Shown here in pieces: positions 4,887 to 64,000 of a DNA stretch of 64,000 nt. The stretch is taken from the NCBI GenBank assembly GCA_036253495.1, contig GCA_036253495.1_4125.1; one strand, given 5' to 3'. Source of the DNA: a phage. The notes below the pieces were generated by a model. That model worked only from the letters and a program-made list of their open reading frames with translations. It made no database searches and was not told the DNA's origin. Made by a program: the position numbers and the translations under genes. The first letter of the stretch is position 1; the number at the start of each line of letters is the position of its first letter.

Positions 4887-4895
4887 GAGGATTAT

Positions 4896-5321
4896 ATGCT
4901 GAATTCAACAATTATTGATGCACTACGTGTACTGAATCGCGAAGTTAGCCGTATCCATAAAAGTACTGATCGTTATAAAGTAATGCATGAAATTAAACTA
5001 GAATTAGAAGCTATCAATAAGGGTGAATGGTTCCTTGAACCAGAATACCGTACACGTGGACCAACTGACGTTGAGAAAGCAATTGCAAAATTCATTTCTG
5101 GACGTTATGGTGATGTATCAGAGGCAGATGTACTGATGAATTTACATTTAACCTCCTTAGAAATTGAAGAAAAATTCAAATTTGATTCACTGGACTGGGT
5201 AGAAATGATCATGGAACTTGAAGATGAATTTAAGGTTGAGATCGAAGATAAGTATGAATCTGGAGATACCAGAATCGTGCATCTCGTTGAACATGTACAA
5301 ACAATGATCGATAAACGCTAA
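4896..5321 (+). CDS. acyl-carrier-protein-like (PP-binding-like) domain protein
   Basis: C-terminal half carries FDSLDWVEMIMELEDEFKVEI, resembling the ACP DSL(D)xVElvMalEeeF motif with the Ser that is phosphopantetheinylated in ACPs. Confidence 0.45.
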   Translation: MLNSTIIDALRVLNREVSRIHKSTDRYKVMHEIKLELEAINKGEWFLEPEYRTRGPTDVEKAIAKFISGRYGDVSEADVLMNLHLTSLEIEEKFKFDSLDWVEMIMELEDEFKVEIEDKYESGDTRIVHLVEHVQTMIDKR

Positions 5322-13493: not shown

Positions 13494-13628
13494 ATGATGA
13501 AAGGATTAAAGAAATTTGGATCGGATTTTGTTAAGTGTATTCGCTACACTTATGATGCAAATCCAGAAATGACCGCCATTGTCGGTGTGTTTATTACATT
13601 AGTTGTGTTAAGCTTTGTAGTGGTGTAA
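13494..13628 (+). CDS. small membrane protein (44 aa)
   Basis: Unlisted short ORF with AAGGAAA RBS and a hydrophobic C-terminal segment. Confidence 0.25.
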   Translation: MMKGLKKFGSDFVKCIRYTYDANPEMTAIVGVFITLVVLSFVVV

Positions 13629-13631
13629 AAT

Positions 13632-14042
13632 ATGATTGAAATGGAAGGAACTCTGGTGTATGATCCAGACCGTGGCACTATGAAAAAGAAGAAGGACTTC
13701 TGGTTAGTACTGCAACTTCCATTACAGTTGGTTAGATACTACCAGTACTTCATCAGAACTGATCTCCACATTGATGTTAAAGACCCACAATGGGGAGCAC
13801 ACGTCAGTATTGTTCGTGGTGAAGTGCCACCAAATCCAGAGTACTGGAAAAAGTACGATGGTCAAAAAATTAAAATAAAATTCAATCCTGATATTGTTCA
13901 AGTGAAAGATAAAAAGAAACCAGGCTCGTTCTTTATCATAGAGTTCGATGATGAATTCATTGGACACATTCGCAATGAACTAGGATTACAATCAAAGTAC
14001 TTACGTTATCACCTCACAGTAGGGAGAACGTACTACGACTAA
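13632..14042 (+). CDS. 2H phosphoesterase family protein (Acb1-like / LigT-like candidate)
   Basis: Two H-x-S/T motifs (AHVSIV and YHLTVG) about 70 residues apart in a 136-aa protein. Confidence 0.45.
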   Translation: MIEMEGTLVYDPDRGTMKKKKDFWLVLQLPLQLVRYYQYFIRTDLHIDVKDPQWGAHVSIVRGEVPPNPEYWKKYDGQKIKIKFNPDIVQVKDKKKPGSFFIIEFDDEFIGHIRNELGLQSKYLRYHLTVGRTYYD

Positions 14043-14127
14043 CCTATAGGTTTGTCATACAATTGGCTAAATAAAATGGGTATTAATATACCCATAATTA
14101 TAACCAAAAGAAATATCAAGATTTTAC

Positions 14128-14155
14128 TTGATATGAAATTGAAAGATGCTATACT
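14128..14155 (+). promoter_or_regulatory. sigma70-like promoter (TTGATA-16-TATACT)
   Basis: Hexamers with 16-nt spacing upstream of the lysozyme-like gene. Confidence 0.35.
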
Positions 14156-14289
14156 ACTTACATGTACAGAATGAAAGTTACCTTTTCAGTACTGAAAGTA
14201 TTGTAGAAAGTCCGATGAGGCTTTTGCAAATGGCCTCATAAGCCCTCTTTGTAATTGCTCATCATAACACGCAAACAAAGGAGGCGTTT

Positions 14290-15216
14290 TTGACAATAGC
14301 GATACAAACACCTAAAACTAAGACAGCTATAGGCTTATTAGTTTCACTTGTTATCATCGCTGCGTTTGGATTTTATGGTTTTTCTCAACATGATCGTGCA
14401 TCATCATCGGGCGAAAGTCAGGTGCACAATTTAAAACCGCAAGTTACACAAATTCAAAAGCAGGAATTACCTAAAGGGTATACACCTAAAGTAGTTCCAG
14501 GCAGCGAGAAACATTATACTGTTGAATACGGTGATAGTTATCATTCGATAGCTAAGAAGTTTAAACCGCATAATGTGTTGTTTGAAGATTACGTTACAGT
14601 ATTGAAGAATATCAATCTTAATGCTAAACTTCATACATCGCAGGGTATCTTTATCCCAACAAAAGAGGATTTGAAAGACGTACTGTTACCTGATGTGGTA
14701 GTACTTTTCGATTATAATGATCCTGAAATAGTAGCACACATCAAAGAAGCTGAAGGTTCAATTGAATTTCAGTCCAAGAACAAAAGACGTTTACTTGGGG
14801 GAAAAGTTGGAGTTCCTTTCTACAATTCAAAATTTCATCCTTATAAGGATATGAAAGGTAACTACACAATCGCATATGGTCACTACCTCGGTCCACGTGA
14901 ATCAGATGCTATAAAATATAGGAATGGTATCACAGTTACTGAAGCCCATAACTTGTTACTCACTGATATGAAAAGAATCAATGATGAATTGATTCTATTA
15001 TTGAAGAAGAAAAATGCAACATATCTCACAGTTGAACAACAAATAATACTATTTGATATGGCATTTACTTTAGGTATTAATAAGCTCAATACTTTTAATA
15101 AGTTATGGAAAAGTGTTGAAAAAAGGAATGCAAAAAAGTTTAAAAAAGAAATTAAGAATTCACTATGGTATAGACAAGTTGGGAAACGTGGGGAATTATT
15201 AGTTAATAATTTGTAA
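14290..15216 (+). CDS. membrane-anchored LysM plus T4-lysozyme-like (GH24-like) protein
   Basis: TTG start 7 nt after AAGGAGG; N-terminal TM; LysM-like YTVEYGDSYHSIAKKF; C-terminal YKDMKGNYTIAYGH...WYRQ resembles the T4 lysozyme core. Confidence 0.6.
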   Translation: MTIAIQTPKTKTAIGLLVSLVIIAAFGFYGFSQHDRASSSGESQVHNLKPQVTQIQKQELPKGYTPKVVPGSEKHYTVEYGDSYHSIAKKFKPHNVLFEDYVTVLKNINLNAKLHTSQGIFIPTKEDLKDVLLPDVVVLFDYNDPEIVAHIKEAEGSIEFQSKNKRRLLGGKVGVPFYNSKFHPYKDMKGNYTIAYGHYLGPRESDAIKYRNGITVTEAHNLLLTDMKRINDELILLLKKKNATYLTVEQQIILFDMAFTLGINKLNTFNKLWKSVEKRNAKKFKKEIKNSLWYRQVGKRGELLVNNL

Positions 15217-17872: not shown

Positions 17873-18985
17873 ATGAAAAAATACCTTGTTGGTGGATACT
17901 GCCGCGACCGTCTAATGGGCATTCGTGCAAAGGACAAAGATTATGTCATTGTTGGTGCAACTGAATCTGATATAAAATACTTAGAAAGTATTGGATATAA
18001 ACAGGTTGGTAAAGATTTTCCAGTTTATCTAAGCCCAGAAGGTAACGAACACGCATTAGCCCGTACTGAACGAAAAACTGGTACTGGATACGGTGGCTTC
18101 GAAGTGGATACAAAAGGTGTAACACTGGAACAAGATTTGTATCGTCGTGATCTTACAATTAATGCAATCGCGTATGATCCAGTACTGCAAATTCACATCG
18201 ACCCATACGGTGGTAAAGCTGATATCAAGAATAAAGTACTACGCCATGTATCCGAGCACTTCAAAGAAGATCCATTGCGTGTATTACGTCTAGCTCGCTT
18301 TGCTACGCGTTATTCTGATTTCTCTATACACGAGACTACTGAAGCACTTGCAATCGATATGGTAGCGTCTGGTGAGCTAAATCACCTTGTTCCAGACCGT
18401 GTTTATGTTGAATTTGAAAAGGCATTGTCAGAAGAGAAGCCAGCTAAGTTCCTTAAAACACTAAGTAAGTTGGGTTACTATGAAAAAGCATTTAATGCTA
18501 CATTAACCAAAAAGTCATTGGAACTCATTGATCATATCTCTGATAATTGTACTGAAGCATATAAGCCATATTTCTTATGGTCTGTGCTTCTTGAGAAAGA
18601 AGAAGTTGGCGAGGATTCAGTACTGAATGGTGCTATTAAAATGCCCGTTAAGTACGTTAAATTCAGTAATTACATCAAACGTTTCCGTGATGATATCAAG
18701 GCATTCCGTAAAAAGACCCCAAATGAAATGGGACAATTATTACTGGATATGAATATCAAGAATAACGGCGGTGAAGAATTCCTTTACAAAGTACTGGAAT
18801 ATTTTATTCTACGTAAAGAGATTGATTTAGACCTTGAAGATTTAATCATTAAGGTATATGATCGTTACACTGATGTAGTACTTCCAGATATTCAACAACT
18901 GGTAAAAGACGGTGAGTTAGAAGCATCTGAAATCCGTGATTTTGTTTCAGATTTACGTTGTGAAGCAATTCAACAAATGTTTTAA
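17873..18985 (+). CDS. tRNA nucleotidyltransferase (CCA-adding enzyme) / poly(A) polymerase head-domain family
   Basis: LVGGYCRDRLMG...DKDY head-domain motif and RRDLTINAIAYD; ATG at 17873 after GGGAGA. Confidence 0.75.
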   Translation: MKKYLVGGYCRDRLMGIRAKDKDYVIVGATESDIKYLESIGYKQVGKDFPVYLSPEGNEHALARTERKTGTGYGGFEVDTKGVTLEQDLYRRDLTINAIAYDPVLQIHIDPYGGKADIKNKVLRHVSEHFKEDPLRVLRLARFATRYSDFSIHETTEALAIDMVASGELNHLVPDRVYVEFEKALSEEKPAKFLKTLSKLGYYEKAFNATLTKKSLELIDHISDNCTEAYKPYFLWSVLLEKEEVGEDSVLNGAIKMPVKYVKFSNYIKRFRDDIKAFRKKTPNEMGQLLLDMNIKNNGGEEFLYKVLEYFILRKEIDLDLEDLIIKVYDRYTDVVLPDIQQLVKDGELEASEIRDFVSDLRCEAIQQMF

Positions 18986-35005: not shown

Positions 35006-36331
35006 ATGAGCGAACAACAAGATATCCTGAACGTAAAACTGACTCCTAAGAAAGCAAAAATGGCTATGGCTCTGGCAGATAAAATTCAGGATAGTCTGAT
35101 GATTTGGGGTAGCCCTGGTATCGGTAAGTCTGCGATTGCACGTCAATACGCTGACGAGAACTATCCTCTTCGTAAGGATAACTTGGCTAAAATCGAGTTC
35201 ATGAAACAACAAATTGAAGTTGATACTGAAAATGCTGATGCACTTCGCCGCGAACTGGCAGCGTTTGAAGCAAAACTGATTGACCAAGACACTAACTTCA
35301 TCGACTTCCGTTTGTCACAGATTGAACCAAGTGACCTACGTGGTATCCCAGTCCCTGAAAAAGTGTTCCTGGATATGGATGGCAAACAACTGATTGAATC
35401 TGAACTGGAAACAGCTAAAGATTACATTGCTGAAACAGCAGTTGTATGGGCAGCACCTAAAGTACTGAAACTGTCTCCAGATTGGAAAGGTGTTATCCTG
35501 TTTGACGAAATTAACTCTGCTATGCCGATTGTACAGGCAGCGTCTTATCAGCTAATCCTCGACCGTTGTGTTGGTGAGATGAAGCTACCTAAGACTGCAC
35601 TGATTCTCGCAGCAGGTAACCGTGAAACTGATGGCGGCGTAACGTTCTCTCTGGCAACGCCACTACGTGACCGTATGACCCACATCGAAATGGTTCCTTA
35701 CCATCAAGATTGGATTGACGATTACGCGATTGCTAAGCGTTTGAACCCAGGTACTGTTGCGTTCATCAACAACACTGGTGCTAAGTACTTCAACACCCTT
35801 AGCCCACAAGATCCTTCTCACAGTGGTGGTACTTCTCCACGTTCATGGGAAGCAGTAGCACGCTACGAAGACCTGAAGAAAGGCAACAACATTGATAAAG
35901 AAGTGTTCCGTGCTCTAATCGCTGGTCGTGTTGGTGAAGGTGTAGCAACTGAATATATCGAATACGTAGAAAACGTATCTAAACTACCAGATACTATGTC
36001 CATCCTACAGGGTGAGATTAAAGAGATTGATGCAACGCTGGATATTTCTGCGAACTACTTCATCTCTCTGAATCTGGTTTATAAAATTATCGACCTGTAC
36101 AATGAGAAGCAAGAACAACGTCTTCCAGTTGAAGAGTGGGGCAAGCTGTGCAACAACTTCATCACCTTCCTGGACCGTAACTTCTCCGAAACTCAGGCAG
36201 AACTGGCAGTACTAGCAATTCGTACCATCACTCAACATAAGGTAGCGATTGCGTACAAAGATGTTCCAGCGTTCAAAGACTTCGTTATGAAGTACTCTGA
36301 CCTAGTACGCAAAGCACGTTCTCTTGGTTAA
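35006..36331 (+). CDS. MoxR-type AAA+ ATPase (AAA_5-like)
   Basis: Walker A GSPGIGKS, Walker B VILFDEINSA, sensor-like ILAAGNRE. Confidence 0.75.
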   Translation: MSEQQDILNVKLTPKKAKMAMALADKIQDSLMIWGSPGIGKSAIARQYADENYPLRKDNLAKIEFMKQQIEVDTENADALRRELAAFEAKLIDQDTNFIDFRLSQIEPSDLRGIPVPEKVFLDMDGKQLIESELETAKDYIAETAVVWAAPKVLKLSPDWKGVILFDEINSAMPIVQAASYQLILDRCVGEMKLPKTALILAAGNRETDGGVTFSLATPLRDRMTHIEMVPYHQDWIDDYAIAKRLNPGTVAFINNTGAKYFNTLSPQDPSHSGGTSPRSWEAVARYEDLKKGNNIDKEVFRALIAGRVGEGVATEYIEYVENVSKLPDTMSILQGEIKEIDATLDISANYFISLNLVYKIIDLYNEKQEQRLPVEEWGKLCNNFITFLDRNFSETQAELAVLAIRTITQHKVAIAYKDVPAFKDFVMKYSDLVRKARSLG

Positions 36332-36353
36332 TAACTAAAAGAATGTTTGACAA

Positions 36354-36381
36354 GAAGGATGCCACATGGTATCCTTCTTTT
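36354..36381 (+). terminator. possible intergenic hairpin/terminator
   Basis: gaaggat-(10 nt)-atccttc followed by TTTTAT. Confidence 0.35.
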
Positions 36382-36405
36382 ATCTTAACTAAACGAGGAA
36401 ATATC

Positions 36406-37809
36406 ATGTCCGATAAGAAATTTAGCGACGTAACACCACAACTCCAGAAAGAATGCCAAGACCGTTTGATTCTTGCTCGTACTTCTCTGATGTTAACTGC
36501 TCCATTCTTTGGTGTACTGGCTTCACGTCTGCGTCCAGTTGCAAACAATACATGGTGTCGTACCTTAGCAGTAGATGGTAAACATTTATTCTATAACGTA
36601 GAATTTATCATGGGTATTCAAGACCCAAGCAAGAAAGAAGCATACGAAGAAGCAATTCGTGAGAAGCATCCTGAAGTAACTGAAGAACAATTGAAAGAAA
36701 TGACCGAAGGTTTGACTGATGAAAACCTGATTGCAGTTATCTGTCATGAAATTCTTCACTGTGCATACGATCACTTCCTTCGTCGTGGTATGCGTGACCC
36801 ACAACGCTACAACCGTGCAGCAGACTACGCAATCAACCAAATTATTGTTCGTGAAAAAATTGGTAAGATTCAAAGTCAATGGTTGTATGATAAGAAGTAT
36901 GATGGTATGACCGCCGAAGAGATTTATATTCTTCTAGAAGAAGAAGATAAACAAGATCAAGATGAAGGTGAAGGACAACCACAATCTGGTAGTGGTGAAG
37001 GTGAAGGTAAATCACGCGGTACTTTTGGTGATATCCAAAATGGTAAAGGCAAAGGCACTACCATTGACCAACACGATGTACCACAAGATGGTGAAGGTGG
37101 TGCATCTGAAGCACAAAAACGTGAATACATGGACGATTTCAAAACAGCAATGATGAATGCTGCTCGTGCAGGTGGTACTCCTGCTGAAATCGCTCGTATG
37201 ATCAATAACTTTAAAGAACCAAAAATTGACTGGCGTTCTAAACTTCAACGTACTCTTCGTAGCTGGTTGAAGTCTGATGCGACCTATCAAAGCCCAAGCC
37301 GCCGTTCATGGGGTGCTGGTTTTGGTTCCAATGGTTCATTCTACGGGAATCCAATCTTCCCAGGTATGAAACCAGATGACGATATTGATATTGCAATTGC
37401 ACTCGATGCATCAGGCTCTATCAGTGAAGATATGCTTCGTGATTTCATCAGTGAAGTACTAGGCATCACTAAACAATTCAAGCAGTTTAAAATTCGTATC
37501 ATGACATTTGATACTGAAGTTTATACTGTGATGGATTATAAAACTGGTGAAGAACGTAAGATTCTTGAATATCCAGTTAAAGGTGGTGGCGGTACTGACT
37601 TTGAAGCAGTTTGGGTTCACATGAAGCATGACAATTATAAGCCTAAACAGCTTATCATGTTTACCGATGGTGAACCGTGGCAGTCATGGGGTGATCCTAA
37701 CTACTGTAAAACACTGTTTGTGATTCACAGTAACCCGAACAAAGTAGCACCATTTGGTGAAACTGTTCACTACGAATATGAAGCGGACAAAAAACGCCAA
37801 CGTTCGTAA
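36406..37809 (+). CDS. VWA-domain protein with N-terminal HExxH metallopeptidase-like domain (MoxR partner)
   Basis: HEILHCAYDH motif; VWA MIDAS-like DIDIAIALDASGSIS and later GGGTDF, MFTDGEPW; ATG at 36406 after GAGGA. Confidence 0.7.
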   Translation: MSDKKFSDVTPQLQKECQDRLILARTSLMLTAPFFGVLASRLRPVANNTWCRTLAVDGKHLFYNVEFIMGIQDPSKKEAYEEAIREKHPEVTEEQLKEMTEGLTDENLIAVICHEILHCAYDHFLRRGMRDPQRYNRAADYAINQIIVREKIGKIQSQWLYDKKYDGMTAEEIYILLEEEDKQDQDEGEGQPQSGSGEGEGKSRGTFGDIQNGKGKGTTIDQHDVPQDGEGGASEAQKREYMDDFKTAMMNAARAGGTPAEIARMINNFKEPKIDWRSKLQRTLRSWLKSDATYQSPSRRSWGAGFGSNGSFYGNPIFPGMKPDDDIDIAIALDASGSISEDMLRDFISEVLGITKQFKQFKIRIMTFDTEVYTVMDYKTGEERKILEYPVKGGGGTDFEAVWVHMKHDNYKPKQLIMFTDGEPWQSWGDPNYCKTLFVIHSNPNKVAPFGETVHYEYEADKKRQRS

Positions 37810-37820
37810 AAATAAATATA

Positions 37821-55799: not shown

Positions 55800-55821
55800 A
55801 GGAGCCATTGGCTCCTTTTTT
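55800..55821. terminator. bidirectional rho-independent terminator
   Basis: ggagcc-att-ggctcc hairpin followed by TTTTTTT; near-identical core to the terminator at 61534. Confidence 0.6.
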
Positions 55822-56285
55822 TAATATCTATATGGTAGACTATTGACAAATTGTGTACCAGCGTTTATACTTTCCCATAAAGAATAAAAATCTTTCATCA
55901 AATTAACATTTAATAATGTATTTTTAGCTCCAGGGTGAAGAGGTTTAGGCCATGAGCCAATTTTAACCCAAGCATATCCAGAGCTTTCCTTATTGAGAAT
56001 AGGAACAAACTCATTTTCAACAACAACAACGAAAGAATAATATTTGAACTTACCATTCTTAGTACAAAATACATCAAAGGGTATAATATCAATTATATCA
56101 GGTAACGAATCTCCCAATTCTTCTCGTATTTCACGATGCAAAGCTTGCAAAGGGGATTCGTTGTATTCGAGTTTTCCACCAACAAAAGCCCAGTTGTTTG
56201 AATAGGTACTGCTTTCAGATCTAAGATTGAGCATCATATGACCAGTACTTTTAGATAAAAATATTGCTCCTACTGCCTCATTCAT
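55821..56285 (-). CDS. Nudix hydrolase
   Basis: Nudix box GGKLEYNESPLQALHREIREELGD. Confidence 0.65.
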   Translation of the reverse strand: MNEAVGAIFLSKSTGHMMLNLRSESSTYSNNWAFVGGKLEYNESPLQALHREIREELGDSLPDIIDIIPFDVFCTKNGKFKYYSFVVVVENEFVPILNKESSGYAWVKIGSWPKPLHPGAKNTLLNVNLMKDFYSLWESINAGTQFVNSLPYRY

Positions 56286-56294
56286 ACATCCTCC

Positions 56295-57638
56295 TTATTT
56301 GTCAGTGAATGATATCTTCCAATATCCCTGACGGTATTGCGACATAATACTCTTATGCCATTTGAATTTTTCATTGTATCTATAATAGTGACTATCTTGA
56401 CGATTGTAAACATAATTAAGTACTGAAGACGGTTCAATTAGTTCAGCACCTTCATTCGTTATTTTGAACAAATAATTTGGTGGAATAACTGTGTCTTTGT
56501 AAATTAAATCTCTTGCACTATTATTTACATAATATTGTTCAGGTATAGCTGAATACAATTCTGCATCTTTGGATATCAACGCTATGATAGAGTAATCGAC
56601 AACATAATTACTACTATCCAATTGAACAACAATCTTGTTTGCCTTATCTTCGTGTCCCATTGATATTATAGTTCCACGCAAAGGATTACTTTCTTCGATT
56701 GCTTGTTGGAATTTAATACCGAGTTTCTTATCTTTGTATTCAGGCTCTAAGTACTGAATATATTTCTCCCAAGAATATATACCACCGTTGGATGTTCTCT
56801 CACTCATACTTTGACTTACCAATGTAAGGACATAAGTATCTGCGTTTTTATCCGATGCTTCTGTTATTTCTTCAACTTTGATGCATAAATTTTTAGGAGT
56901 GAATACATCAGTAATTATATCCTGATAGTTTCCTATTTCAAAATCCAATTCATCACGACCACTTTCTATATTAGTTGTTATCTGTTGTATAAGCTTTGGC
57001 TTTTCAACGATAGCAGGTAATGATAACCATATAGTTGTTTCAAATGTAAGAACCATAATATCAAGTTCAGTATCAGTTCCTTGTGGAAATCCACGAGTAC
57101 TGAATTGACAGTCAATTAATTCCACATCACTTTGTGCCGTCCAGTCTAATGGGTTATCAGATAGTTGCAATTGAACACTTGGAGCAAACAATGTACTGAT
57201 TTGCTCATATAATTCCATTTTTGTTTGCAGTTGTGTAACCCATATGTTTAAATCAAATGTAAATGTCCAAGGTACAGGGTTATGTCTTGTTATTTTATAC
57301 TGCTTATCCAACTCAGGAGTGAATTCATTTGGTGCAGGGGACTTATTTGTCCCCATAATAATAGTTTCGTTCGCATTTGAACGAATACTTTTACGATCCA
57401 ATTTCAATTGATTCACACTAATAGTCATGATCGGTGCAGTAGGCATTACGTTCTCACTGTTACCATTGATAACAGCAGCAGCCAAACGTGAAATATCTGC
57501 ATATCTACATGGAACTTGCTTGTATCTTGGTTTACCTTCGTCATCAACTCCATTTTGTACTTGAAACCCACCAAAAATCCTGATAAGATGTTTCAGTACT
57601 CGACGAAATTGACCATCATAGTAGTATTCTACTTTCAT
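56295..57638 (-). CDS. hypothetical protein (likely virion structural)
   Basis: 447-aa ORF in an operon-like arrangement with the next gene. Confidence 0.5.
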   Translation of the reverse strand: MKVEYYYDGQFRRVLKHLIRIFGGFQVQNGVDDEGKPRYKQVPCRYADISRLAAAVINGNSENVMPTAPIMTISVNQLKLDRKSIRSNANETIIMGTNKSPAPNEFTPELDKQYKITRHNPVPWTFTFDLNIWVTQLQTKMELYEQISTLFAPSVQLQLSDNPLDWTAQSDVELIDCQFSTRGFPQGTDTELDIMVLTFETTIWLSLPAIVEKPKLIQQITTNIESGRDELDFEIGNYQDIITDVFTPKNLCIKVEEITEASDKNADTYVLTLVSQSMSERTSNGGIYSWEKYIQYLEPEYKDKKLGIKFQQAIEESNPLRGTIISMGHEDKANKIVVQLDSSNYVVDYSIIALISKDAELYSAIPEQYYVNNSARDLIYKDTVIPPNYLFKITNEGAELIEPSSVLNYVYNRQDSHYYRYNEKFKWHKSIMSQYRQGYWKISFTDK

Positions 57639-59143
57639 TCTTTATCCCCTTTTGCACGGTATAGAGTGTTTGGTTTTGCCGCGTCGTGTAATGGGACACG
57701 ATTAGGACTGTTAACGAACTCGGTTAGGGCTAAATCTGCACCTTCCCACGGTTTACGTCCACCATAATCAAAGATTACCCAAGACTTTTTAACTTCACTG
57801 TATTCCCAAAGAGTTACAGGGTTGTAATCCGTGCGATAGAAGTATTCACCATCAGTTGGATCAGATGGGAACGTGTCCCCTTCTTGCACAGTACCGCGAG
57901 CAGGTGGAATTTTAGGTCTTGAATCTTGTTGCGAGTCTATGTTACCATATACACTGTTAGAACTGAAAGGTAAGTTAACATGTGTATCTGGTGGAACTTG
58001 CCATGTACCATCTAAGTACTGGTACATTGTTGGTTTTTCATATTGAATGTAAAAATCCTCAGCATTTTTCGGTGGAACGTCACCAGTTGAGTATTCAACG
58101 TCACAATTAAGCCACTTTTTGAGAGATTTGTCATATTGATACAGGGAATATCCAGTAACATCTGAATCATTCTCTTTATAGAAGAAATCACCGTCAGATG
58201 GTTTACGTGGAAACGTTGTTCCATACGGAACTGAAACATTTTCCCAAGAATTGTTGACTTTCTCTTTCAGTACTGGTAAAGTTTTCTTCAAGAAGTACAT
58301 TTTGTTAGCTGGTTCTTCTGGGAAGTCATATCCATTAAGAACAAACTTTGACAAATCGGTTGTATCTGGTCTATCATCGTATATATGTTCATTTGTGAAG
58401 TGGATGTAAGGGACTTCATCATCAGCTTGCATTATAATACGGTTCATGATATCCATTTCGTTATCATAACTGCTGTTTGGTGAAGAACCATTGGAACCAC
58501 TGTTACCATTACCATTATTTGGGTCATCTGGGTTGTCTGGATAATCATTATTAGTAAGTAAGTCCGCGTACTCAGGTGAATCGGTAATAGGTTTGACACG
58601 AATTTTGTAAATGTGATGTTGCCATGTTGCAGAGTAACCTTCAGATGTTCTAAAACCGTCCTGAACTACGTAAAAACGGTTTAAACCTGAATCTTTACCA
58701 ACAACATCGAAATCACGAAGGTTTGGAAGTTCAATTACATCACCAGGCATAATTTTTCTTCCCAATCGCTGCATCATTGTGTTATAATGAACTGTAATGT
58801 CCATTGTGTTGAAGTTAAAGAACAACCCAGGAATTTTTAAATCAGGTGTTGCTTCTTGTACTTGATAAACACAACTAAGTGTGATAGCCTCTAGATTGTA
58901 ACTACGATTTGAGGTTTCACCAAAAATTAGGTCACCAATACTTGACGCAGCGGAACCATCAGTGATATAATCACCACCGTAAGAATAGTCGTTAGGAGTT
59001 GTTGATGGTTTAGCACCGACAAAGGCATAAAGCCACATGTCTACGCCACCAATATTGTATTGTTCAGCAATGGCAGAATCTATGAATTTATAATCATTGG
59101 TTCTACCTTTTTTCCACATTCTGTATGCCATTTTGTTCTCCAA
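57635..59143 (-). CDS. hypothetical protein (likely virion structural)
   Basis: 502-aa ORF; 4-nt overlap with the downstream gene. Confidence 0.5.
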   Translation of the reverse strand: MENKMAYRMWKKGRTNDYKFIDSAIAEQYNIGGVDMWLYAFVGAKPSTTPNDYSYGGDYITDGSAASSIGDLIFGETSNRSYNLEAITLSCVYQVQEATPDLKIPGLFFNFNTMDITVHYNTMMQRLGRKIMPGDVIELPNLRDFDVVGKDSGLNRFYVVQDGFRTSEGYSATWQHHIYKIRVKPITDSPEYADLLTNNDYPDNPDDPNNGNGNSGSNGSSPNSSYDNEMDIMNRIIMQADDEVPYIHFTNEHIYDDRPDTTDLSKFVLNGYDFPEEPANKMYFLKKTLPVLKEKVNNSWENVSVPYGTTFPRKPSDGDFFYKENDSDVTGYSLYQYDKSLKKWLNCDVEYSTGDVPPKNAEDFYIQYEKPTMYQYLDGTWQVPPDTHVNLPFSSNSVYGNIDSQQDSRPKIPPARGTVQEGDTFPSDPTDGEYFYRTDYNPVTLWEYSEVKKSWVIFDYGGRKPWEGADLALTEFVNSPNRVPLHDAAKPNTLYRAKGDKE

Positions 59144-59173
59144 AATAAATCGGTATATCTGTATTTACTAGGT

Positions 59174-59200
59174 AGACAAACTGAAAGAATGTGATATAAT
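59174..59200 (+). promoter_or_regulatory. sigma70-like promoter with extended -10 (TAGACA-15/16-TGaTATAAT)
   Basis: gtgatataat ending at 59200, upstream of the ClpA-like gene. Confidence 0.45.
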
Positions 59201-59239
59201 GATTTTAATGACAGTGAGAAGAATCACATAGGAGAGAAC

Positions 59240-61525
59240 ATGAATTTAACACAGCTATTCAAAAGCAGCGACGACCTTGCAACCTCTATGGGTCATACTT
59301 TCTTGACAATCGATCACATCAGTGCTACAGTGCTGACAGTGGATAGCATTATTGATGTATTTGGGACAATGAACGTTGACGCAACGAAAGTGCGTGATCG
59401 CTTGATTGAATATCTGAAAAATACCAATGTTCCACACGCACCACGCAGCACTATGGGGGAAGAAGTTAATCGCACTACACTAATCGTCAATCGTGTAATG
59501 CAAGAACTATCTAAGAAATCTGTCATCGAACAACTCAAACGTGACGATTTCTCAATTGATGCATTCTTTGTACTGTTTGAATGTTTGTCATTCCCAAACA
59601 CTGCATTAGAAGCAGCATTGTTGGAAGAGGGTGTAACTCGTACTGAAGCGGCCCGTACTCTTCAGAAATATGTAGAATCTCTTGATTCTGAAATTAACCT
59701 ACAAAGCATCGCTGATGAACCTACTGGGGAGAAAAAGGTGGCTCAACAACAACCTGCATCAAAACAGAAATCAATCGAAGATTACACGACCAACCTAACA
59801 CAGTTGGCTAAAGATGGTAAACTGGACCCAATGATTGGTCGTCAAAAAGAACTGGATGCACTAATTGAAACTCTGGCTCGTAAAACTAAGAAGAATGCTA
59901 TTCTGACTGGTGAAGCTGGTGTTGGTAAAACTCAGATTGTTGACGGTCTAGCACAAGCCATTGTTGATGGTAATGTACCAGAACATCTACAAAACATTGA
60001 GATTTTATCTCTTAACGTTGGTGCACTAACTGCTGGTACTAAGTATCGTGGTGAATTCGAAGAACGTATTGATAATCTTCTCAAAGAACTGAAGAAACGT
60101 GAAAATACAATCGTGTTCATTGACGAAATCCATATCATGGTAGGTGCAGGTTCTGCAAGCAACGGTTCAATGGATATGAGTAACATGTTGAAACCAGCAC
60201 TATCTCGTGGTGAGATTCGTGTAATCGGTGCAACTACTTATGATGAATATCGTAAAAACATCGAGAAAGATAGTGCATTGACTCGTCGTTTCATGAAAAT
60301 TGACGTAGTTGAGCCAACTATTGAAGAAACTCGTGCGATTGTAAATGGTCTGCAAGGTACATATGAGAAATTCCATAACGTAACTTTCAGTACTGAAGCA
60401 ATGGATGCGATTGTGTCTTTGAGTGATAAGTTCCTGAAGAACAAACACTTCCCAGACAAAGCAATCGACCTTATGGATGCAGCAGCAGCTAAGAAACGTT
60501 CACGCGACGAATCTGATAATGTGATTTCACTACGCACAATTCAAGAAGTTGTTGCGGGAATTGCAAACTTGGATATCAACGTAGTAGCTTGTACTGAAAC
60601 TGAACGTATGAAGTCACTACCAGCAGCACTTCGTAGTCGTGTATTCGGTCAAGAAGAAGCAGTGGAGAAATTGGTTGATAACGTAATGGTTGCACGTGCA
60701 GGACTTCGTGAGAAAGCAAGTGTTCAGGGTGCATTCATGTTTGTCGGTCCGTCTGGTACTGGTAAAACTGAAATCACTAAAGCACTAGCCGATGCAATGG
60801 GTTCTGAACTGATTCGCTTCGATATGTCTGAATTTTCACAAGAACATACCGTTGCAAAACTAATTGGTTCACCTCCTGGCTATGTTGGTCACGATACTGG
60901 TAATGGTCTGCTACTCGACAAAATTGAGCAATTCCCGAATGCAGTTCTACTGCTGGACGAAATTGAAAAAGCACACCCTAAAGTACTGCTAACCTTCCTA
61001 CAGGTTCTGGATGAAGGCCACCTAACTGGTTCACAGGGTAAAACTGTATACTTTAACAACGTAACAGTTATTATGACAACCAACTTGGGTGCAGCAGATG
61101 CAAATAAACGTAGTCTGGGTTTGAGTGGTGGTGAAACAGCACAGGAGAAGGCAGTGAAAGCTTTCCTACCACCTGAATTCCTAAACCGTATCGATAGCAT
61201 CGTGAAGTTTAATGAGCTATCCGGTGAAGCTATCCAGAGCGTTATTGATAAGTTCATGGCTGGTCTAAATGAGCAAATCAAAGAGCGTGGCGTGAAAGTT
61301 ACACTGACTAAAGCGGCTCGTGAATGGTTAGAAGCAAATGGTGTTCAGCCTGGAATGGGTGCACGTCCAATGAAACGTACAATCGAGCAGAACATCCGTG
61401 TTCCTCTGGCTAAAGAAATGCTATGCGGCTCACTGGTAAATGGTGGTAACGTAACATTTGATGTGATTAACGGAAAGTTGGGTATCAAACCAAAACGTCA
61501 AGTTAAAACCCCATCTGTAGTGTAA
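59240..61525 (+). CDS. ClpA/ClpB-family two-domain AAA+ unfoldase
   Basis: D1 Walker A GEAGVGKT with Walker B VFIDEIH; D2 Walker A GPSGTGKT with LLLDEIEKAH; Clp N-domain-like N-terminus. Confidence 0.8.
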   Translation: MNLTQLFKSSDDLATSMGHTFLTIDHISATVLTVDSIIDVFGTMNVDATKVRDRLIEYLKNTNVPHAPRSTMGEEVNRTTLIVNRVMQELSKKSVIEQLKRDDFSIDAFFVLFECLSFPNTALEAALLEEGVTRTEAARTLQKYVESLDSEINLQSIADEPTGEKKVAQQQPASKQKSIEDYTTNLTQLAKDGKLDPMIGRQKELDALIETLARKTKKNAILTGEAGVGKTQIVDGLAQAIVDGNVPEHLQNIEILSLNVGALTAGTKYRGEFEERIDNLLKELKKRENTIVFIDEIHIMVGAGSASNGSMDMSNMLKPALSRGEIRVIGATTYDEYRKNIEKDSALTRRFMKIDVVEPTIEETRAIVNGLQGTYEKFHNVTFSTEAMDAIVSLSDKFLKNKHFPDKAIDLMDAAAAKKRSRDESDNVISLRTIQEVVAGIANLDINVVACTETERMKSLPAALRSRVFGQEEAVEKLVDNVMVARAGLREKASVQGAFMFVGPSGTGKTEITKALADAMGSELIRFDMSEFSQEHTVAKLIGSPPGYVGHDTGNGLLLDKIEQFPNAVLLLDEIEKAHPKVLLTFLQVLDEGHLTGSQGKTVYFNNVTVIMTTNLGAADANKRSLGLSGGETAQEKAVKAFLPPEFLNRIDSIVKFNELSGEAIQSVIDKFMAGLNEQIKERGVKVTLTKAAREWLEANGVQPGMGARPMKRTIEQNIRVPLAKEMLCGSLVNGGNVTFDVINGKLGIKPKRQVKTPSVV

Positions 61526-61533
61526 AAAGAAAA

Positions 61534-61559
61534 GGAGAGCCATTGGCTCTCCTTTTTTT
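61534..61559. terminator. bidirectional rho-independent terminator
   Basis: ggagagcc-att-ggctctcc hairpin followed by TTTTTTT. Confidence 0.65.
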
Positions 61560-61560
61560 G

Positions 61561-63951
61561 TTATTGAATATTCAATAGATTTTCGATATCAGTTCCAGTA
61601 ATTGACAATCCATTTCTGAATGTATCTAATGGAATTGGTGGATAGAAGTTTTGATATTGAGTAAACTTATCAATGCTCCCCAAGTTCAATCCATTAAAGC
61701 TATAAGACGTTCCTTTAGTAAAATTATGTTCCGCACTATACATGACACCACGTAATAGACGGTCAGTGTTTCTTACCTGAACCTTCTCATATCCAACCAC
61801 AATAATATCATCATTCTGTGCCGCAGCACCTGACAGTACTGAATCAGTAATGATATATGGGCTTATTGAACGAGGTTTAGCAACATAAGTGATTGCCTCA
61901 TCTTCAACGGTTGTAATGTTAATTACACTACATCCTACTTCTTTGATGAACGTGTTATTGACCACAGGTTGTGCATACTGCCACACGCGATCATAACTTA
62001 GTACTGGTTGAATAACATCAACATCGTATTCAAATACAGTGATTTCAATACCATCAGTCATTTTAGCTCGTACTAGTTCACCCAGGACACCTTTACCAGA
62101 GATTGGCTGATTGTAACCATTATCAATTGTAATACCATCAACTTCAAAAATCTCATTGGAAACTAACCACAAATCAATTTCATCAGGTGTGATACCATCA
62201 TTGAATTTACCACCATATAATGTTTCGTCATAGAATACTTCATAGTTCAATGCATGTATACTGTAATGACGATTATTTTCATATAGTTTAAGTCCATTGT
62301 CATCAAACTCAGGGTCTTGGAAAGTGCGGATTCTAACTAAGTTCATTGATAATGTATAAAAACGCTCATTACTTTCACGCTTAGTTATACTATCAAACAT
62401 TAACACTACACCATTACTATCAACCAACTCTACGTTACCATTACCCAATACACGTACTGTGTATAGTTTTGGTTTTTTAGAGGATTGGATTTTACTAGCA
62501 CTTAATATAGTTACCCAGTTACCGTCTTGGAATCGTACATAATCTTCACCATCTGGCGTGAAAATCATAACCTTATCACCATCTTTCAAACCTTCATCGT
62601 GAACTTTGATTTCAGTAATTGTTTTAATTTCTGAAATTGGGAAGAAGTATTTTTCAGATTCTTTGAACACATCTTTACCCATATTCTCAATAACAATATC
62701 ATATGATGGAATACTTACAACTGCTTCTGACATATTGTAAGGGTTTTGTACGATCATACCCTCAATCTGGAATCTACTTGTGTCTTTTAATTGCTCTTGA
62801 GCAACTTCATCGAAACCGTAACCATCAACAGTGAAACGTAATTGTGCCATTGTTCTTCCTGATGGGTTTAGTTCAGAAATGTCGATGATATAAGGATCAA
62901 TCTCACTATCTTTAACTTCCCATTTAATGGATTTGGTTTGTGATTCCAATGCCAAGTTATCGAATGCATTCATATCATTGAAATATTTTGCAGTATTGAT
63001 ACTTTCCAGTACTTCAACATATGCAGAATACATTGGATTATTCTGGTCTTGTGGTAAATCATTTAAATCAATTTCAGCCAATACAACTGATTCTCCGGTT
63101 GTTATGAATAAGTCTTCCATGAAATCAGATATGCTGTAACTTTCAGGAATCGGTAGATATTCACCTGCCGCATTCACAACATACACATATTTCCTTGGCA
63201 TCATAACAAAAGCATACTTATCAACTGCACGATTACTTAAGATTTCTCTAGCAACATAATAATGATCTAGAATATTCTTATTAAATGTTTGTCGCATTGC
63301 AGATAACACATGAACGGTATCAGAATAATAACGGTCATTTAATGTGGTATCATACTTGTAGCAATAAACACCATATTCTATCTCTAGTATATTACGAACT
63401 TGGTCTTCATTAGTAAACTCAGGGTGATTTTTCTTGATCATATCGACATATTTTTCATATAGTTCAATACTAATCTCAAAATAACCATAGTTGTAATCAC
63501 TACTTGCACTGAACCCAAAAGGTAGGCGAGTATTAGGATTATCATTATAGTTCGTACCCTTAAATGGACAACCAATCTCATTAGAAACCATGTCATCAGA
63601 TATATTCTTAAACATTTTCACACGAGTTGCTAATGTATTGTATTGAATATATTTCTTAACGTCTTCTAAAATGTTACTGTTGTTTGTATCAGTAGTTACC
63701 TGCTCCAAATCAGCAGTAAATTGGTCAGTCATTGCAATATCAGTTGAATGGGCTTTATACCATGCATCAATTCCTTTAATGACACCATTACTAATATCCA
63801 AATCTGAATATTTGGTAGTCATTTCAATACCAATCTGTGAAATTAAGGTATTATTATCATATTCAGGGAATGTATAAACATATCTCTGTAATTCATAATC
63901 ATTTCCTATATCCGAAGCATTAGATTGATACTTACTATTGGTTGATTTCAA
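61561..63951 (-). CDS. hypothetical large protein (possibly structural)
   Basis: 796-aa ORF; no motif recognised. Confidence 0.5.
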   Translation of the reverse strand: MKSTNSKYQSNASDIGNDYELQRYVYTFPEYDNNTLISQIGIEMTTKYSDLDISNGVIKGIDAWYKAHSTDIAMTDQFTADLEQVTTDTNNSNILEDVKKYIQYNTLATRVKMFKNISDDMVSNEIGCPFKGTNYNDNPNTRLPFGFSASSDYNYGYFEISIELYEKYVDMIKKNHPEFTNEDQVRNILEIEYGVYCYKYDTTLNDRYYSDTVHVLSAMRQTFNKNILDHYYVAREILSNRAVDKYAFVMMPRKYVYVVNAAGEYLPIPESYSISDFMEDLFITTGESVVLAEIDLNDLPQDQNNPMYSAYVEVLESINTAKYFNDMNAFDNLALESQTKSIKWEVKDSEIDPYIIDISELNPSGRTMAQLRFTVDGYGFDEVAQEQLKDTSRFQIEGMIVQNPYNMSEAVVSIPSYDIVIENMGKDVFKESEKYFFPISEIKTITEIKVHDEGLKDGDKVMIFTPDGEDYVRFQDGNWVTILSASKIQSSKKPKLYTVRVLGNGNVELVDSNGVVLMFDSITKRESNERFYTLSMNLVRIRTFQDPEFDDNGLKLYENNRHYSIHALNYEVFYDETLYGGKFNDGITPDEIDLWLVSNEIFEVDGITIDNGYNQPISGKGVLGELVRAKMTDGIEITVFEYDVDVIQPVLSYDRVWQYAQPVVNNTFIKEVGCSVINITTVEDEAITYVAKPRSISPYIITDSVLSGAAAQNDDIIVVGYEKVQVRNTDRLLRGVMYSAEHNFTKGTSYSFNGLNLGSIDKFTQYQNFYPPIPLDTFRNGLSITGTDIENLLNIQ

Positions 63952-64000
63952 CTCATCAATTGTATAATTACTATCATACGGGTCACATTGAATATTATCA

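What the first reader, a model, noticed from the sequence alone, without database searches (positions are those of the whole stretch)
59174..61559. Phage-encoded ClpA-like double-ring unfoldase next to structural genes
The 761-aa protein has both Walker A/B sets of a class I Clp ATPase (GEAGVGKT and GPSGTGKT) and a Clp N-domain-like N-terminus. A segment KRSLGLSGG lies where ClpA carries its ClpP-docking IGL loop. It has its own promoter and terminator and sits between divergent structural genes. It may use host ClpP for degradation or serve in virion assembly.
Basis: partly seen in the sequence, partly recalled or inferred. Interest (0 to 1): 0.45.

Follow-up and report, generated by a model that had tools for sequence, protein, structure and literature searches.

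The report
Known jumbo-phage ClpA unfoldase gene
This gene encodes an intact ClpA-type protein-unfolding motor that all RaK2/121Q-like giant phages carry and databases already annotate; the nearly identical phage A4 also has its own ClpP protease and a ClpS-like adaptor, so the motor most likely belongs to a phage-owned protein-degradation machine and not to the virus particle.

Summary
Window 59240-61525 (+) encodes a 761-aa class I Clp ATPase, bracketed by a promoter-like site (59173-59200) and a hairpin terminator (61530-61556). It aligns end to end with E. coli ClpA (43% identity) and has no middle domain. All catalytic motifs are intact, and LGL sits in the column of ClpA's IGL docking tripeptide. 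The window is 99.6% identical to Escherichia phage A4, where the gene is already annotated "ClpA-like protein". Two papers already note ClpA in RaK2-like jumbo phages, so the finding is already known.

New here:
- A4 encodes a cellular-type ClpP with an intact triad and a ClpS-domain protein, both outside the window.
- ClpP co-occurs with ClpA across the clade, so the phage's own ClpP is a more likely partner than host ClpP.
- The phAPEC6 orthologue is absent from the virion proteome although its neighbours are present.
- ClpA lacks the late ATAAATA promoter element of the flanking structural genes.
- ClpA shares a sigma70-type extended -10 promoter with ClpP.
- The docking tripeptide varies across the clade, and the phage ClpPs carry a conserved C-terminal tail at the docking site.

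Substrates and biological role remain unknown.

The parts
59173..59200 (+). Sigma70-type promoter-like site: TAGACA, 16-nt spacer, TATAAT, with the extended -10 element TGTGATATAAT
   Evidence: 11 of 12 matches, TG present. The TGTG-n-TATAAT element is conserved upstream of ClpA in phAPEC6, RaK2, GAP32 and a metagenomic relative, and degenerate in XaC1. TAGACA-N16-TATAAT occurs only twice in the 355-kb A4 genome, upstream of ClpA and of ClpP. Function as a promoter is inferred.
59230..59236 (+). Ribosome-binding site AGGAGAG, 3 nt upstream of the ATG
   Evidence: Sequence read directly.
59240..61525 (+). ClpA-type AAA+ unfoldase CDS, 761 aa plus stop codon
   Evidence: TIGR02639 ClpA 761.6 bits in one stretch covering 5-733 of 734; E. 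coli ClpA structure 1ksf E = 4e-179. PHROG 4871 scores 1005.6 bits. The predicted model superposes on ClpA chains with TM 0.90.
59240..59689 (+). Divergent Clp_N-type N-terminal domain (about residues 1-150), followed by a flexible linker (about residues 151-178)
   Evidence: 24% identity to the E. coli ClpA N-domain. The clade profile hits ClpA N-domain structures at E = 9e-8. The model is helical here, with a low-pLDDT linker at 156-176.
59909..59932 (+). D1 Walker A motif GEAGVGKT (residues 224-231)
   Evidence: The catalytic lysine is invariant in 112 clade members.
60746..60769 (+). D2 Walker A motif GPSGTGKT (residues 503-510)
   Evidence: The catalytic lysine is invariant in 112 clade members.
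61115..61123 (+). LGL tripeptide (residues 626-628) in the D2 loop that corresponds to ClpA's ClpP-docking IGL loop
   Evidence: Aligned to E. coli I617-G618-L619. It lies in a low-pLDDT exposed loop, residues 624-630. Clade census: 64 of 112 have a canonical [LIVM]G[FLMI] tripeptide.
61530..61556 (.). Bidirectional intrinsic-terminator hairpin (AAAAGGAGAGCC ATT GGCTCTCCTTTT) between the convergent ClpA and giant structural genes
   Evidence: The hairpin is kept through compensatory base changes in phAPEC6, RaK2, GAP32, XaC1 and a metagenomic relative.
57635..59143 (-). Context: divergent ~500-aa virion structural gene, heading the operon that continues with the gp15-like tail sheath stabiliser (56295-57638) and a NUDIX gene (55821-56285)
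   Evidence: phrog_11591, 844 bits. This gene order is conserved in GAP32, XaC1 and a metagenomic contig.
61561..64000 (-). Context: C-terminal part of the convergent ~3,325-aa giant structural protein, which runs off the window end
   Evidence: The phAPEC6 orthologue gp245 (382 kDa) was detected in virions.

Best explanation
The gene encodes a catalytically competent ClpA-type hexameric unfoldase: a Clp_N domain, two AAA+ rings and no middle domain. Its most likely partner is the phage's own ClpP, represented by A4_455 in the near-identical phage A4. The LGL loops on the D2 face would dock onto that ClpP to form a phage-encoded ClpAP protease, possibly steered by the phage's ClpS-domain protein (A4_74). 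It is a non-virion protein made from its own sigma70-type transcription unit and not with the late structural genes that flank it. Shown here: identity, intact motifs, clade-wide conservation, co-occurrence with an intact-triad phage ClpP, absence from a relative's virion proteome, and a promoter class distinct from late genes. Inferred: physical pairing with the phage ClpP, pre-late timing, and the role, which is probably remodelling of the infected cell's proteome or quality control and turnover of phage proteins. The substrates are unknown.
For: Identity:
- ClpA HMM match in one full-length stretch, while ClpB, ClpV and ClpK models match in two stretches.
- End-to-end alignment to E. coli ClpA.
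- Walker A/B, KYR and GYVG pore loops, Arg fingers and sensors intact and invariant or nearly so in 112 clade members.
- Model superposes on ClpA from ClpAP complexes with TM 0.90 and rmsd 3.0-3.3 A.

Docking loop: LGL lies in the IGL column.

Phage ClpP:
- A4_455 scores 157 bits against TIGR00493 over its full length, versus 52 bits for the head-maturation ClpP model.
- The real prohead protease is a separate gene, A4_8, Peptidase_S77.
- The triad S113/H139/D188 is intact and invariant in 63 clade ClpPs.
- ClpP is present in 121Q, RaK2, K64-1, GAP32, Erwinia, Serratia and Yersinia phages, 7t3 and PA5oct, and in all 8 genome-paired sets.

Adaptor: the A4_74 family profile hits only ClpS structures (E = 1.6e-5), and 13 of 14 members match Pfam ClpS.

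Expression:
- 16 of 23 late structural operon heads carry ATAAATA, against a background of 0.7-1.9%. ClpA does not.
- ClpA and ClpP carry the only two TAGACA-N16-TATAAT sites in the genome (0.3 expected), both with TGTGATATAAT.
- The extended -10 element and the terminator are conserved in diverged relatives.

Not a virion protein: phAPEC6 gp246c is absent from the 62 virion proteins detected by mass spectrometry, while gp245 and gp248 are present.
Against: - No experiment links the phage ClpA to the phage ClpP.
- ClpP lies about 90 kb away and outside this window, so its presence in the window's own genome is inferred from 99.6% identity to A4.
- The docking tripeptide is poorly conserved in the clade: 28 of 112 read [LIVM]G[VAGH] and 18 of 112 lack the central Gly (for example MNM in Salmonella phage 7t3). 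ClpP docking may therefore be weakened or unconventional in some lineages.
- Eight paired genomes show no clear loop-cleft covariation.
- The uniquely shared -35 element holds only for A4-like phages; 121Q ClpP has TGGACA, and in GAP32 and 7t3 ClpP has no promoter of its own.
- Strict microsynteny with tail and baseplate genes could instead mean an assembly role.
- Timing is inferred from promoter sequence only.
Confidence: 0.55

Rival explanations
1. One reading: the phage ClpA hijacks host E. coli ClpP, forming a hybrid protease that redirects host proteolysis.
For: [quoted passage not shown] The D2 ring is 47% identical to E. coli ClpA. This is not mutually exclusive with use of the phage ClpP.
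Against: The phage lineage maintains its own intact ClpP alongside ClpA, which would be unnecessary if host ClpP sufficed. Relatives that infect enterobacteria with similar ClpP have non-canonical tripeptides such as IGV, IGA and MNM. The loop is two residues shorter than in ClpA.
Confidence: 0.2
2. A ClpP-independent unfoldase or assembly chaperone for the tail/baseplate module, for example one that handles the adjacent ~3,325-aa structural protein, released before particle completion.
For: The arrangement gp15-like gene, ~500-aa gene | ClpA | ~3,340-aa gene is identical from A4 to GAP32, XaC1 and a metagenomic relative at 53-61% ClpA identity. The docking tripeptide is degenerate in about 40% of clade members, which suggests docking is not under uniform constraint. 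PMC7824862 suggests jumbo-phage ClpA/ClpX may aid virion assembly. An assembly factor would also be absent from virions.
Against: The promoter is sigma70-type and lacks the late ATAAATA element that drives the neighbouring structural genes. ClpA-type proteins without a middle domain are known as protease partners, not stand-alone chaperones (established knowledge). ClpP and a ClpS-domain protein are co-retained. The structural module of these phages is syntenic overall, so position alone is weak evidence.
Confidence: 0.2
3. A ClpB/Hsp104-type disaggregase, or a decaying non-functional host-derived gene.
For: ClpB models also score highly (633 bits), as expected for any Hsp100 protein.
Against: ClpB models match in two stretches with a gap where the middle domain lies. 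The D1-small to D2 segment has the same length as in ClpA. A docking loop is present. All catalytic residues are invariant across 112 homologues spanning 53-100% identity, which rules out decay.
Confidence: 0.02

Closest known systems
E. coli ClpA (ClpAP protease ATPase; PDB 1KSF, 6W1Z, 6UQE)
   Same: Same architecture and length (761 vs 758 aa): Clp_N domain, D1 and D2 AAA+ rings, no middle domain. Walker A/B, KYR and GYVG pore loops, RR fingers, sensor-2 GAR and a docking tripeptide in the same loop are all present. 43% identity overall (D1 51%, D2 47%); model TM 0.90.
   Different: The score is below NCBIfam's ClpA equivalog cut-off (761.6 vs 993 bits). The N-domain is only 24% identical. 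The tripeptide is LGL, not IGL, in a loop two residues shorter. The gene is carried by a lytic jumbo phage, in a phage-only clade separated from bacterial ClpA by a score gap (845 to 666 bits).
ClpA-like proteins of RaK2/121Q/GAP32-like jumbo phages (PHROG 4871; e.g. 121Q gp581, RaK2_00069, phAPEC6 gp246c, Atu_ph07 gp292)
   Same: The window protein is a member: 99.9% identical to A4_579, 85% to 121Q/PBECO4/phAPEC6, 74% to RaK2 and 61% to GAP32, with identical gene neighbourhood, promoter type and terminator. PMC6102473 already states that ClpA is highly conserved in most Rak2-like phages.
   Different: Nothing substantive. The tripeptide differs between members: LGL here, IGM in 121Q, IGV in RaK2, LGM in GAP32, MNM in 7t3.
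ClpC/MecA and ClpB/Hsp104
   Same: Same Hsp100 double-ring fold; the structural search also retrieves ClpC-ClpP complexes and ClpB.
   Different: Both have a coiled-coil middle domain inserted in D1, which is absent here. ClpB also lacks a ClpP-docking loop.
Other phage-borne Clp sets (Agrobacterium phage Atu_ph07 with seven Clp-family genes; Pseudomonas PA5oct ClpA plus ClpP)
   Same: Jumbo phages recurrently carry a ClpA and ClpP pair, sometimes with ClpS, ClpX or ClpB.
   Different: The PA5oct and Atu_ph07 proteins are only about 40% identical to this one, about as distant as bacterial ClpA. A4 has no ClpX or ClpB detectable by tblastn.

Membership tests
ClpA (ClpP-coupled class I Hsp100 unfoldase) | Two AAA+ modules, each with Walker A and Walker B | tested here: met
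   GEAGVGKT and IDEIH in D1; GPSGTGKT and LLLDEIEKAH in D2. The Lys and Asp-Glu residues are invariant in 112 clade members.
ClpA (ClpP-coupled class I Hsp100 unfoldase) | Substrate-translocating pore loops (D1 KYR, D2 GYVG), arginine fingers and sensor residues | tested here: met
   KYR 268-270, GYVG 547-550, RR 349-350, NR 649-650, TTN 613-615, GAR 707-709. These are conserved in the clade. Residue roles come from established knowledge of E. coli ClpA.
ClpA (ClpP-coupled class I Hsp100 unfoldase) | No coiled-coil middle domain between the D1 small subdomain and D2 | tested here: met
   Single-stretch match to the ClpA HMM (5-733 of 734), against two-stretch matches to ClpB, ClpV, ClpK and ClpG. 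Alignment to ClpA across D1 is essentially gap-free. The model shows no extra coiled coil.
ClpA (ClpP-coupled class I Hsp100 unfoldase) | N-terminal Clp_N domain | tested here: met
   Weak for the single sequence (Pfam 19 bits, below the 20.7 cut-off). The clade profile hits ClpA N-domain structures first at E = 9e-8, covering mainly the first repeat. Many clade members carry a precomputed PF02861 hit.
ClpA (ClpP-coupled class I Hsp100 unfoldase) | ClpP-docking tripeptide (hydrophobic-Gly-hydrophobic) on a flexible D2 loop | tested here: met
   S-LGL aligns to S-IGL in a disordered loop at 624-630. Caveat: only 64 of 112 clade members are canonical.
ClpA (ClpP-coupled class I Hsp100 unfoldase) | Score above the curated equivalog threshold (NCBIfam TIGR02639 or NF008263) | tested here: not met
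   761.6 bits vs a cut-off of 993.15, and 652.9 vs 1350. It is therefore a ClpA-like paralogous clade and not a curated ClpA equivalog.
ClpA (ClpP-coupled class I Hsp100 unfoldase) | Physical binding to ClpP and ATP-dependent substrate degradation; ClpS binding to the N-domain | not testable with these tools
   Requires biochemistry. Only co-occurrence with the phage ClpP and a ClpS-domain protein was shown.
ClpB/Hsp104 disaggregase | Long coiled-coil middle domain, and no ClpP-docking loop | tested here: not met
   No middle-domain insertion, and a docking loop is present.
RaK2-like jumbo-phage ClpA clade (PHROG 4871) | Full-length match to the phage family profile, and the conserved locus between the ~500-aa and ~3,300-aa structural genes | tested here: met
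   phrog_4871 scores 1005.6 bits over 2-755. Synteny is identical in phAPEC6, RaK2, GAP32, XaC1 and a metagenomic contig.
Virion structural protein | Detected in purified particles | tested here: not met
   From the literature: phAPEC6 orthologue gp246c is not among the 62 virion proteins found by mass spectrometry, while neighbours gp245 and gp248 are (PMC7247149). This has not been tested for this phage itself.

The most novel reading that the evidence does not exclude
The RaK2-like jumbo phages carry a private ClpA-ClpP-ClpS machine whose docking interface has been remodelled. ClpP has a conserved 18-residue C-terminal tail and an L114G change at the cleft, and the ClpA tripeptide is variable. 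Under this reading the machine is insulated from host ClpX, ClpA and ClpP, is co-regulated from matching sigma70-type promoters, and is used before late gene expression to destroy specific host proteins such as defence factors. A ClpS-like adaptor with an altered N-degron pocket (N34D, M40A, H66N) would select the substrates.
Probability: 0.2. Interest if true: 0.6.

Novelty: already known. Interest (0 to 1): 0.3.

Why it matters
As a discovery it matters little. The gene is annotated in dozens of phage genomes, has its own PHROG family and is mentioned in two comparative papers. The unanswered question is why a whole lineage of about 350-kb lytic phages keeps a complete, catalytically intact ClpA, ClpP and ClpS-like set. 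I found no experimental study of a phage-encoded ClpAP in the searchable literature. The details assembled here give concrete handles for such a study:
- the phage has its own ClpP partner;
- the gene has a non-late promoter that it shares with ClpP;
- the protein is absent from virions;
- the docking motif is variable;
- the phage ClpPs carry a clade-specific C-terminal tail at the docking site.

A phage-private AAA+ protease could be a host-takeover or anti-defence device, and might serve as an orthogonal degradation tool.

Tried and rejected
- ClpB/ClpC-type with a middle domain: rejected by HMM stretch structure, pairwise alignment and the model.
- Phage ClpP is really the head-maturation protease, as several records annotate it: rejected. 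It matches cellular ClpP models about three times better than ClpP-like head proteases, and a separate T4-gp21-type prohead protease exists.
- Virion component: not supported by the phAPEC6 proteome. The CBB proteome lists only ClpP, with a single peptide.
- ClpX or other Clp ATPases in A4: none found by tblastn. ClpS was not found by BLAST either; it was recovered only by profile methods.
- Loop-cleft covariation between ClpA and ClpP: 8 genome pairs show no clear pattern, which is too few to conclude anything.
- Gene-level expression timing from the PA5oct RNA-seq study: the supplements are not held, and the main text has no Clp data.
- The A4 paper contains no proteomics. The Sharanji and fEgEco12 papers do not discuss Clp genes.
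- Source of the window in complete E. coli assemblies: no match.
- Apparent stop in the giant downstream ORF: an artefact of the window edge. The frame is open to the end of the window.
- The count of promoter-like sites in the region is not above chance (7 found vs 7.2 expected). The promoter claim rests on its position, the genome-wide rarity of the exact motif and its conservation, not on that scan.
Full report
**1. The observation**

Window 59240-61525 (+) is an open reading frame of 761 codons. The finding's coordinates (59174-61559) correspond to a promoter-like site and a terminator. The promoter-like site reads TAGACA, 16 nt, TATAAT, preceded by TG (59173-59200; 11 of 12 matches). The terminator is a perfect 12-bp hairpin flanked by A and T runs (61530-61556). 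An AGGAGAG ribosome-binding site lies at 59230-59236. One detail needs correcting. Both neighbours are on the minus strand, so the gene is divergent from its upstream neighbour but convergent with its downstream one.

**2. What the protein is**

- Pfam finds AAA, AAA_lid_9, AAA_2 and ClpB_D2-small.
- NCBIfam's best model is ClpA (TIGR02639, 761.6 bits) in one stretch covering model positions 5-733 of 734. ClpB, ClpV, ClpK and ClpG models match only in two pieces.
- The best solved structure is E. coli ClpA (1ksf, E = 4e-179; query 17-741 against ClpA 20-734).

I wrote the E. coli ClpA reference from memory. It agrees with the alignment printed. A global alignment to it gives 43% identity overall: N-domain 24%, D1 51%, D2 47%. 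There is no insertion where ClpB and ClpC carry their middle domain.

Every catalytic element is intact. Residue roles are from established knowledge of ClpA.
- D1: Walker A and B, the KYR pore loop, sensor-1 and the RR fingers.
- D2: Walker A and B, the GYVG pore loop, TTN, the NR finger and GAR sensor-2.

The segment KRSLGLSGGE aligns with ClpA's ERKSIGLIHQD, so LGL occupies the IGL columns in a loop two residues shorter. [quoted passage not shown]

The N-terminus scores just below Pfam's Clp_N threshold on its own. A profile of 22 clade N-termini retrieves the E. coli ClpA N-domain structures first (E = 9e-8), ahead of the ClpC and Hsp104 N-domains.

An AlphaFold2 model built from a 38-sequence alignment has mean pLDDT 78. 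Its low-confidence stretches fall where ClpA is flexible: the N-D1 linker, the D1 pore-2 loop, the GYVG loop and the LGL loop.

**3. Where it comes from, and whether it is new**

The region is 99.6% identical to Escherichia phage A4 (ON286972.1). A4 is a 355,528-bp Asteriusvirus isolated on E. coli LF82, and there the gene is annotated "ClpA-like protein" (A4_579). The window is a close relative of A4, not A4 itself, because it lacks about 4.2 kb that A4 has.

Orthologues are 85% identical in 121Q, PBECO4 and phAPEC6, 74% in RaK2, about 69% in Salmonella phage 7t3, about 61% in GAP32 and 55% in Xanthomonas phage XaC1. [quoted passage not shown]

In the large protein collection the phage clade runs from 100% to about 53% identity, mostly on contigs of about 350 kb. 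The score then drops from 845 to 666 bits at bacterial ClpA, which is about 42-45% identical. The clade has its own PHROG family (4871; 1005.6 bits).

Two papers already discuss it. PMC6102473 states that ClpA is highly conserved in most Rak2-like phages and lists seven Clp-family genes in Atu_ph07. PMC7824862 notes ClpA/ClpX, ClpP and ClpS in subsets of jumbo phages and suggests translocase or assembly roles. I found no experimental study of a phage-encoded ClpAP. The finding is therefore real but already known at the level of annotation and comparative genomics.

**4. The phage has its own ClpP and a ClpS-like protein**

I fetched the whole A4 genome and searched it locally.

*ClpP.* A4_455 (231 aa, about 90 kb from ClpA and outside the window) matches cellular ClpP models over their full length. 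It scores 157 bits against TIGR00493 and 144 bits against Pfam CLP_protease, but only 52 bits against the ClpP-related head-maturation model. The actual prohead protease is a separate T4-gp21-type gene, A4_8 (Peptidase_S77).

A4_455 is 36% identical to E. coli ClpP (reference written from memory). It keeps the Ser-His-Asp triad (S113, H139, D188) and an N-terminal gating region similar to E. coli's. No ClpX or second Hsp100 gene was found.

The same ClpP occurs in 121Q (90%), RaK2 and K64-1 (71%), GAP32 (70%), Erwinia, Serratia and Yersinia jumbo phages (66%), 7t3 (64%) and more distantly PA5oct (35%). All eight genomes in which I could pair the two proteins carry both, and the two diverge roughly in parallel.

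Across 63 clade ClpPs:
- the triad is invariant;
- an 18-residue C-terminal tail (N-E/D-K-G-Q-x-x-V-K/L-R-R-x-G-x-x-E/D-W-V) is present in 60 of 63 and absent from bacterial ClpPs;
- position 114 (mature E. coli numbering) is Gly in 60 of 63, against Leu in 39 of 44 bacterial sequences.

My list of cleft residues is from memory. However, PMC7707817 shows that a cysteine appended to ClpP's C-terminal Asn193 crosslinks to E613C in ClpA's IGL loop. The clade-specific tail therefore emerges right at the docking site.

*ClpS-like protein.* A4_74 (181 aa, annotated "protease adapter protein") is weak as a single sequence: Pfam ClpS E = 5e-4, and the top six PDB hits are all ClpS at E of about 0.3. 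A profile of 14 family members hits only ClpS structures (top ten, E = 1.6e-5, covering the ClpS core), and 13 of 14 members match Pfam ClpS. Positions that form the N-degron pocket in E. coli (roles from memory) are partly kept (D35, T38) and partly changed in an invariant way (N34D, M40A, H66N).

**5. Is the docking loop under constraint?**

The catalytic motifs are invariant in 112 clade ClpAs, but the docking tripeptide is not.
- 64 of 112 are canonical [LIVM]-G-[FLMI]: LGL here, IGM in 121Q, LGM in GAP32, VGF in XaC1.
- 28 read [LIVM]-G-[VAGH], for example IGV in RaK2.
- 18 lack the central glycine, for example MNM in 7t3.
- The remaining 2 read TGM.

The loop is less conserved than D2 as a whole (0.58 against 0.79 mean major-residue frequency). 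Phages with non-canonical tripeptides still carry an intact ClpP. This weakens any simple claim of canonical docking across the clade. It is compatible with a remodelled interface or with partial independence from ClpP. Eight pairs are too few to detect covariation.

**6. Expression and location**

Of 23 upstream regions of clearly late structural operon heads in A4, 16 carry ATAAATA. This resembles the T4 late promoter TATAAATA (from memory), and A4 encodes a late sigma factor. The background rate in random 90-nt windows is 0.7-1.9%, giving P below 1e-22.

ClpA's upstream region lacks ATAAATA on its own strand. The opposite strand carries a TAAATA-type element for the divergent structural operon.

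ClpA instead has GTAGACAAA-N9-TGTGATATAAT, and ClpP has the same elements with the same spacing. TAGACA-N16-TATAAT occurs only at these two places in 711 kb of two-stranded sequence (0.3 expected). TGTGATATAAT occurs seven times (0.9 expected). Besides ClpA and ClpP, four sites lie upstream of the primase, a tRNA, the MoxR-like ATPase/VWA-peptidase pair and the A4_85-GroES pair, and one lies inside the first terminase CDS.

Conservation in relatives:
- The extended -10 element is conserved upstream of ClpA in phAPEC6, RaK2, GAP32 and a metagenomic relative.
- 121Q ClpP (TGGACA -35) and RaK2 ClpP have comparable sigma70-type promoters.
- In GAP32 and 7t3, ClpP abuts the preceding gene and has no promoter of its own.
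- The terminator hairpin is maintained through compensatory changes in all six lineages examined.

I infer that ClpA is an autonomous transcription unit read by host-type sigma70 holoenzyme, in the same class as ClpP and replication functions and not with the late genes. This has not been measured.

The phAPEC6 orthologue (gp246c) is absent from the 62 virion proteins identified by mass spectrometry, while the flanking gp245 (382 kDa) and gp248 are present (PMC7247149).

The locus itself is strictly conserved: NUDIX, gp15-like sheath stabiliser, ~500-aa protein | ClpA | ~3,340-aa protein. The intergenic spacings are nearly identical in GAP32, XaC1 and a metagenomic contig.

**7. Interpretation**

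The best-supported reading (confidence about 0.55) is a phage-encoded ClpAP protease, possibly with a ClpS-like adaptor. It would be made before or independently of late structural genes and would not be packaged. Its substrates are unknown.

Rivals:
- Docking on host ClpP remains possible for this LGL-bearing member and is not exclusive (about 0.2).
- A ClpP-independent assembly or unfolding role for the neighbouring giant structural protein is kept alive by the rigid synteny and the relaxed tripeptide (about 0.2).
- A ClpB-type disaggregase or a decaying gene is excluded.

**8. Verdict**

The gene is an ordinary, already-annotated member of a known jumbo-phage ClpA clade. The 'host ClpP' hypothesis should give way to 'the phage's own ClpP first'.

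Novelty: already known. Interest: 0.3. That score reflects an uncharacterised but well-defined phage ClpA/ClpP/ClpS-like set, with a few new handles: shared promoter, ClpP C-terminal tail, variable docking motif and non-virion status.

Noticed in passing
window ~4886-4916, ~17880-17905 and 13625-15179 (compared with A4 ON286972.1): The window is not phage A4 itself. It lacks about 3.6 kb that A4 has (A4 119525-123120, the genes annotated 'putative tail fiber' and 'tail protein I') and about 1.1 kb (A4_535). One 1.5-kb stretch is only 93.5% identical. These could be host-range differences between close relatives.
   Followed up: partly
window ~35008-37811 (A4_560 and A4_561): An operon of a weak AAA/MoxR-like ATPase and a DUF2201 metallopeptidase-VWA protein. 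Its promoter carries the same TGTGATATAAT element as ClpA and ClpP. The phAPEC6 orthologue of the ATPase (gp265c) was detected in virions.
   Followed up: partly
window 55821-56285 (-): A NUDIX hydrolase gene sits inside the tail module, directly downstream of the gp15-like sheath stabiliser. It is conserved at this position in GAP32, XaC1 and a metagenomic relative.
   Followed up: no
L003:46219-46824 and L003:47227-47829 (A4 genome, outside the window): Two more protease-like genes lie near ClpP. A4_467 is a weak ClpP/crotonase-like protein with a signal-peptide-like hydrophobic N-terminus. A4_469 is an HslV-family peptidase (phrog_1040, 77 bits), and no HslU was noticed. A4 also has two GroES genes and a DnaJ zinc-finger-like fragment.
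   Followed up: partly
L006:34273-36584 (A4 record 230273-232584): The large terminase is annotated as two CDSs separated by a 275-nt gap, and a TGTGATATAAT copy lies inside the first part. This could be an intron, an intein or a split gene.
   Followed up: no
L012:353-401 (RaK2 record 300100-300148): The annotated start of RaK2 ClpP is probably too far upstream. A TTGACA-17-TACAAT promoter lies inside the annotated CDS, and a good RBS plus ATG sits at the position where homology to the other phage ClpPs begins.
   Followed up: partly
window 61561-64000 (-), continuing beyond the window: A ~3,325-aa structural protein (382 kDa in phAPEC6, found in virions) with no Pfam domain on record. It is conserved next to ClpA across the clade and its function is unknown.
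   Followed up: no
whole A4 genome (L002-L009): ATAAATA lies 35-60 nt upstream of 16 of 23 structural operon heads but in only 0.7% of random 90-nt windows. This defines the likely late-promoter element of this phage group, which encodes a late sigma factor (A4_588). The A4 paper also reports that the phage does not lyse its host in broth.
   Followed up: partly
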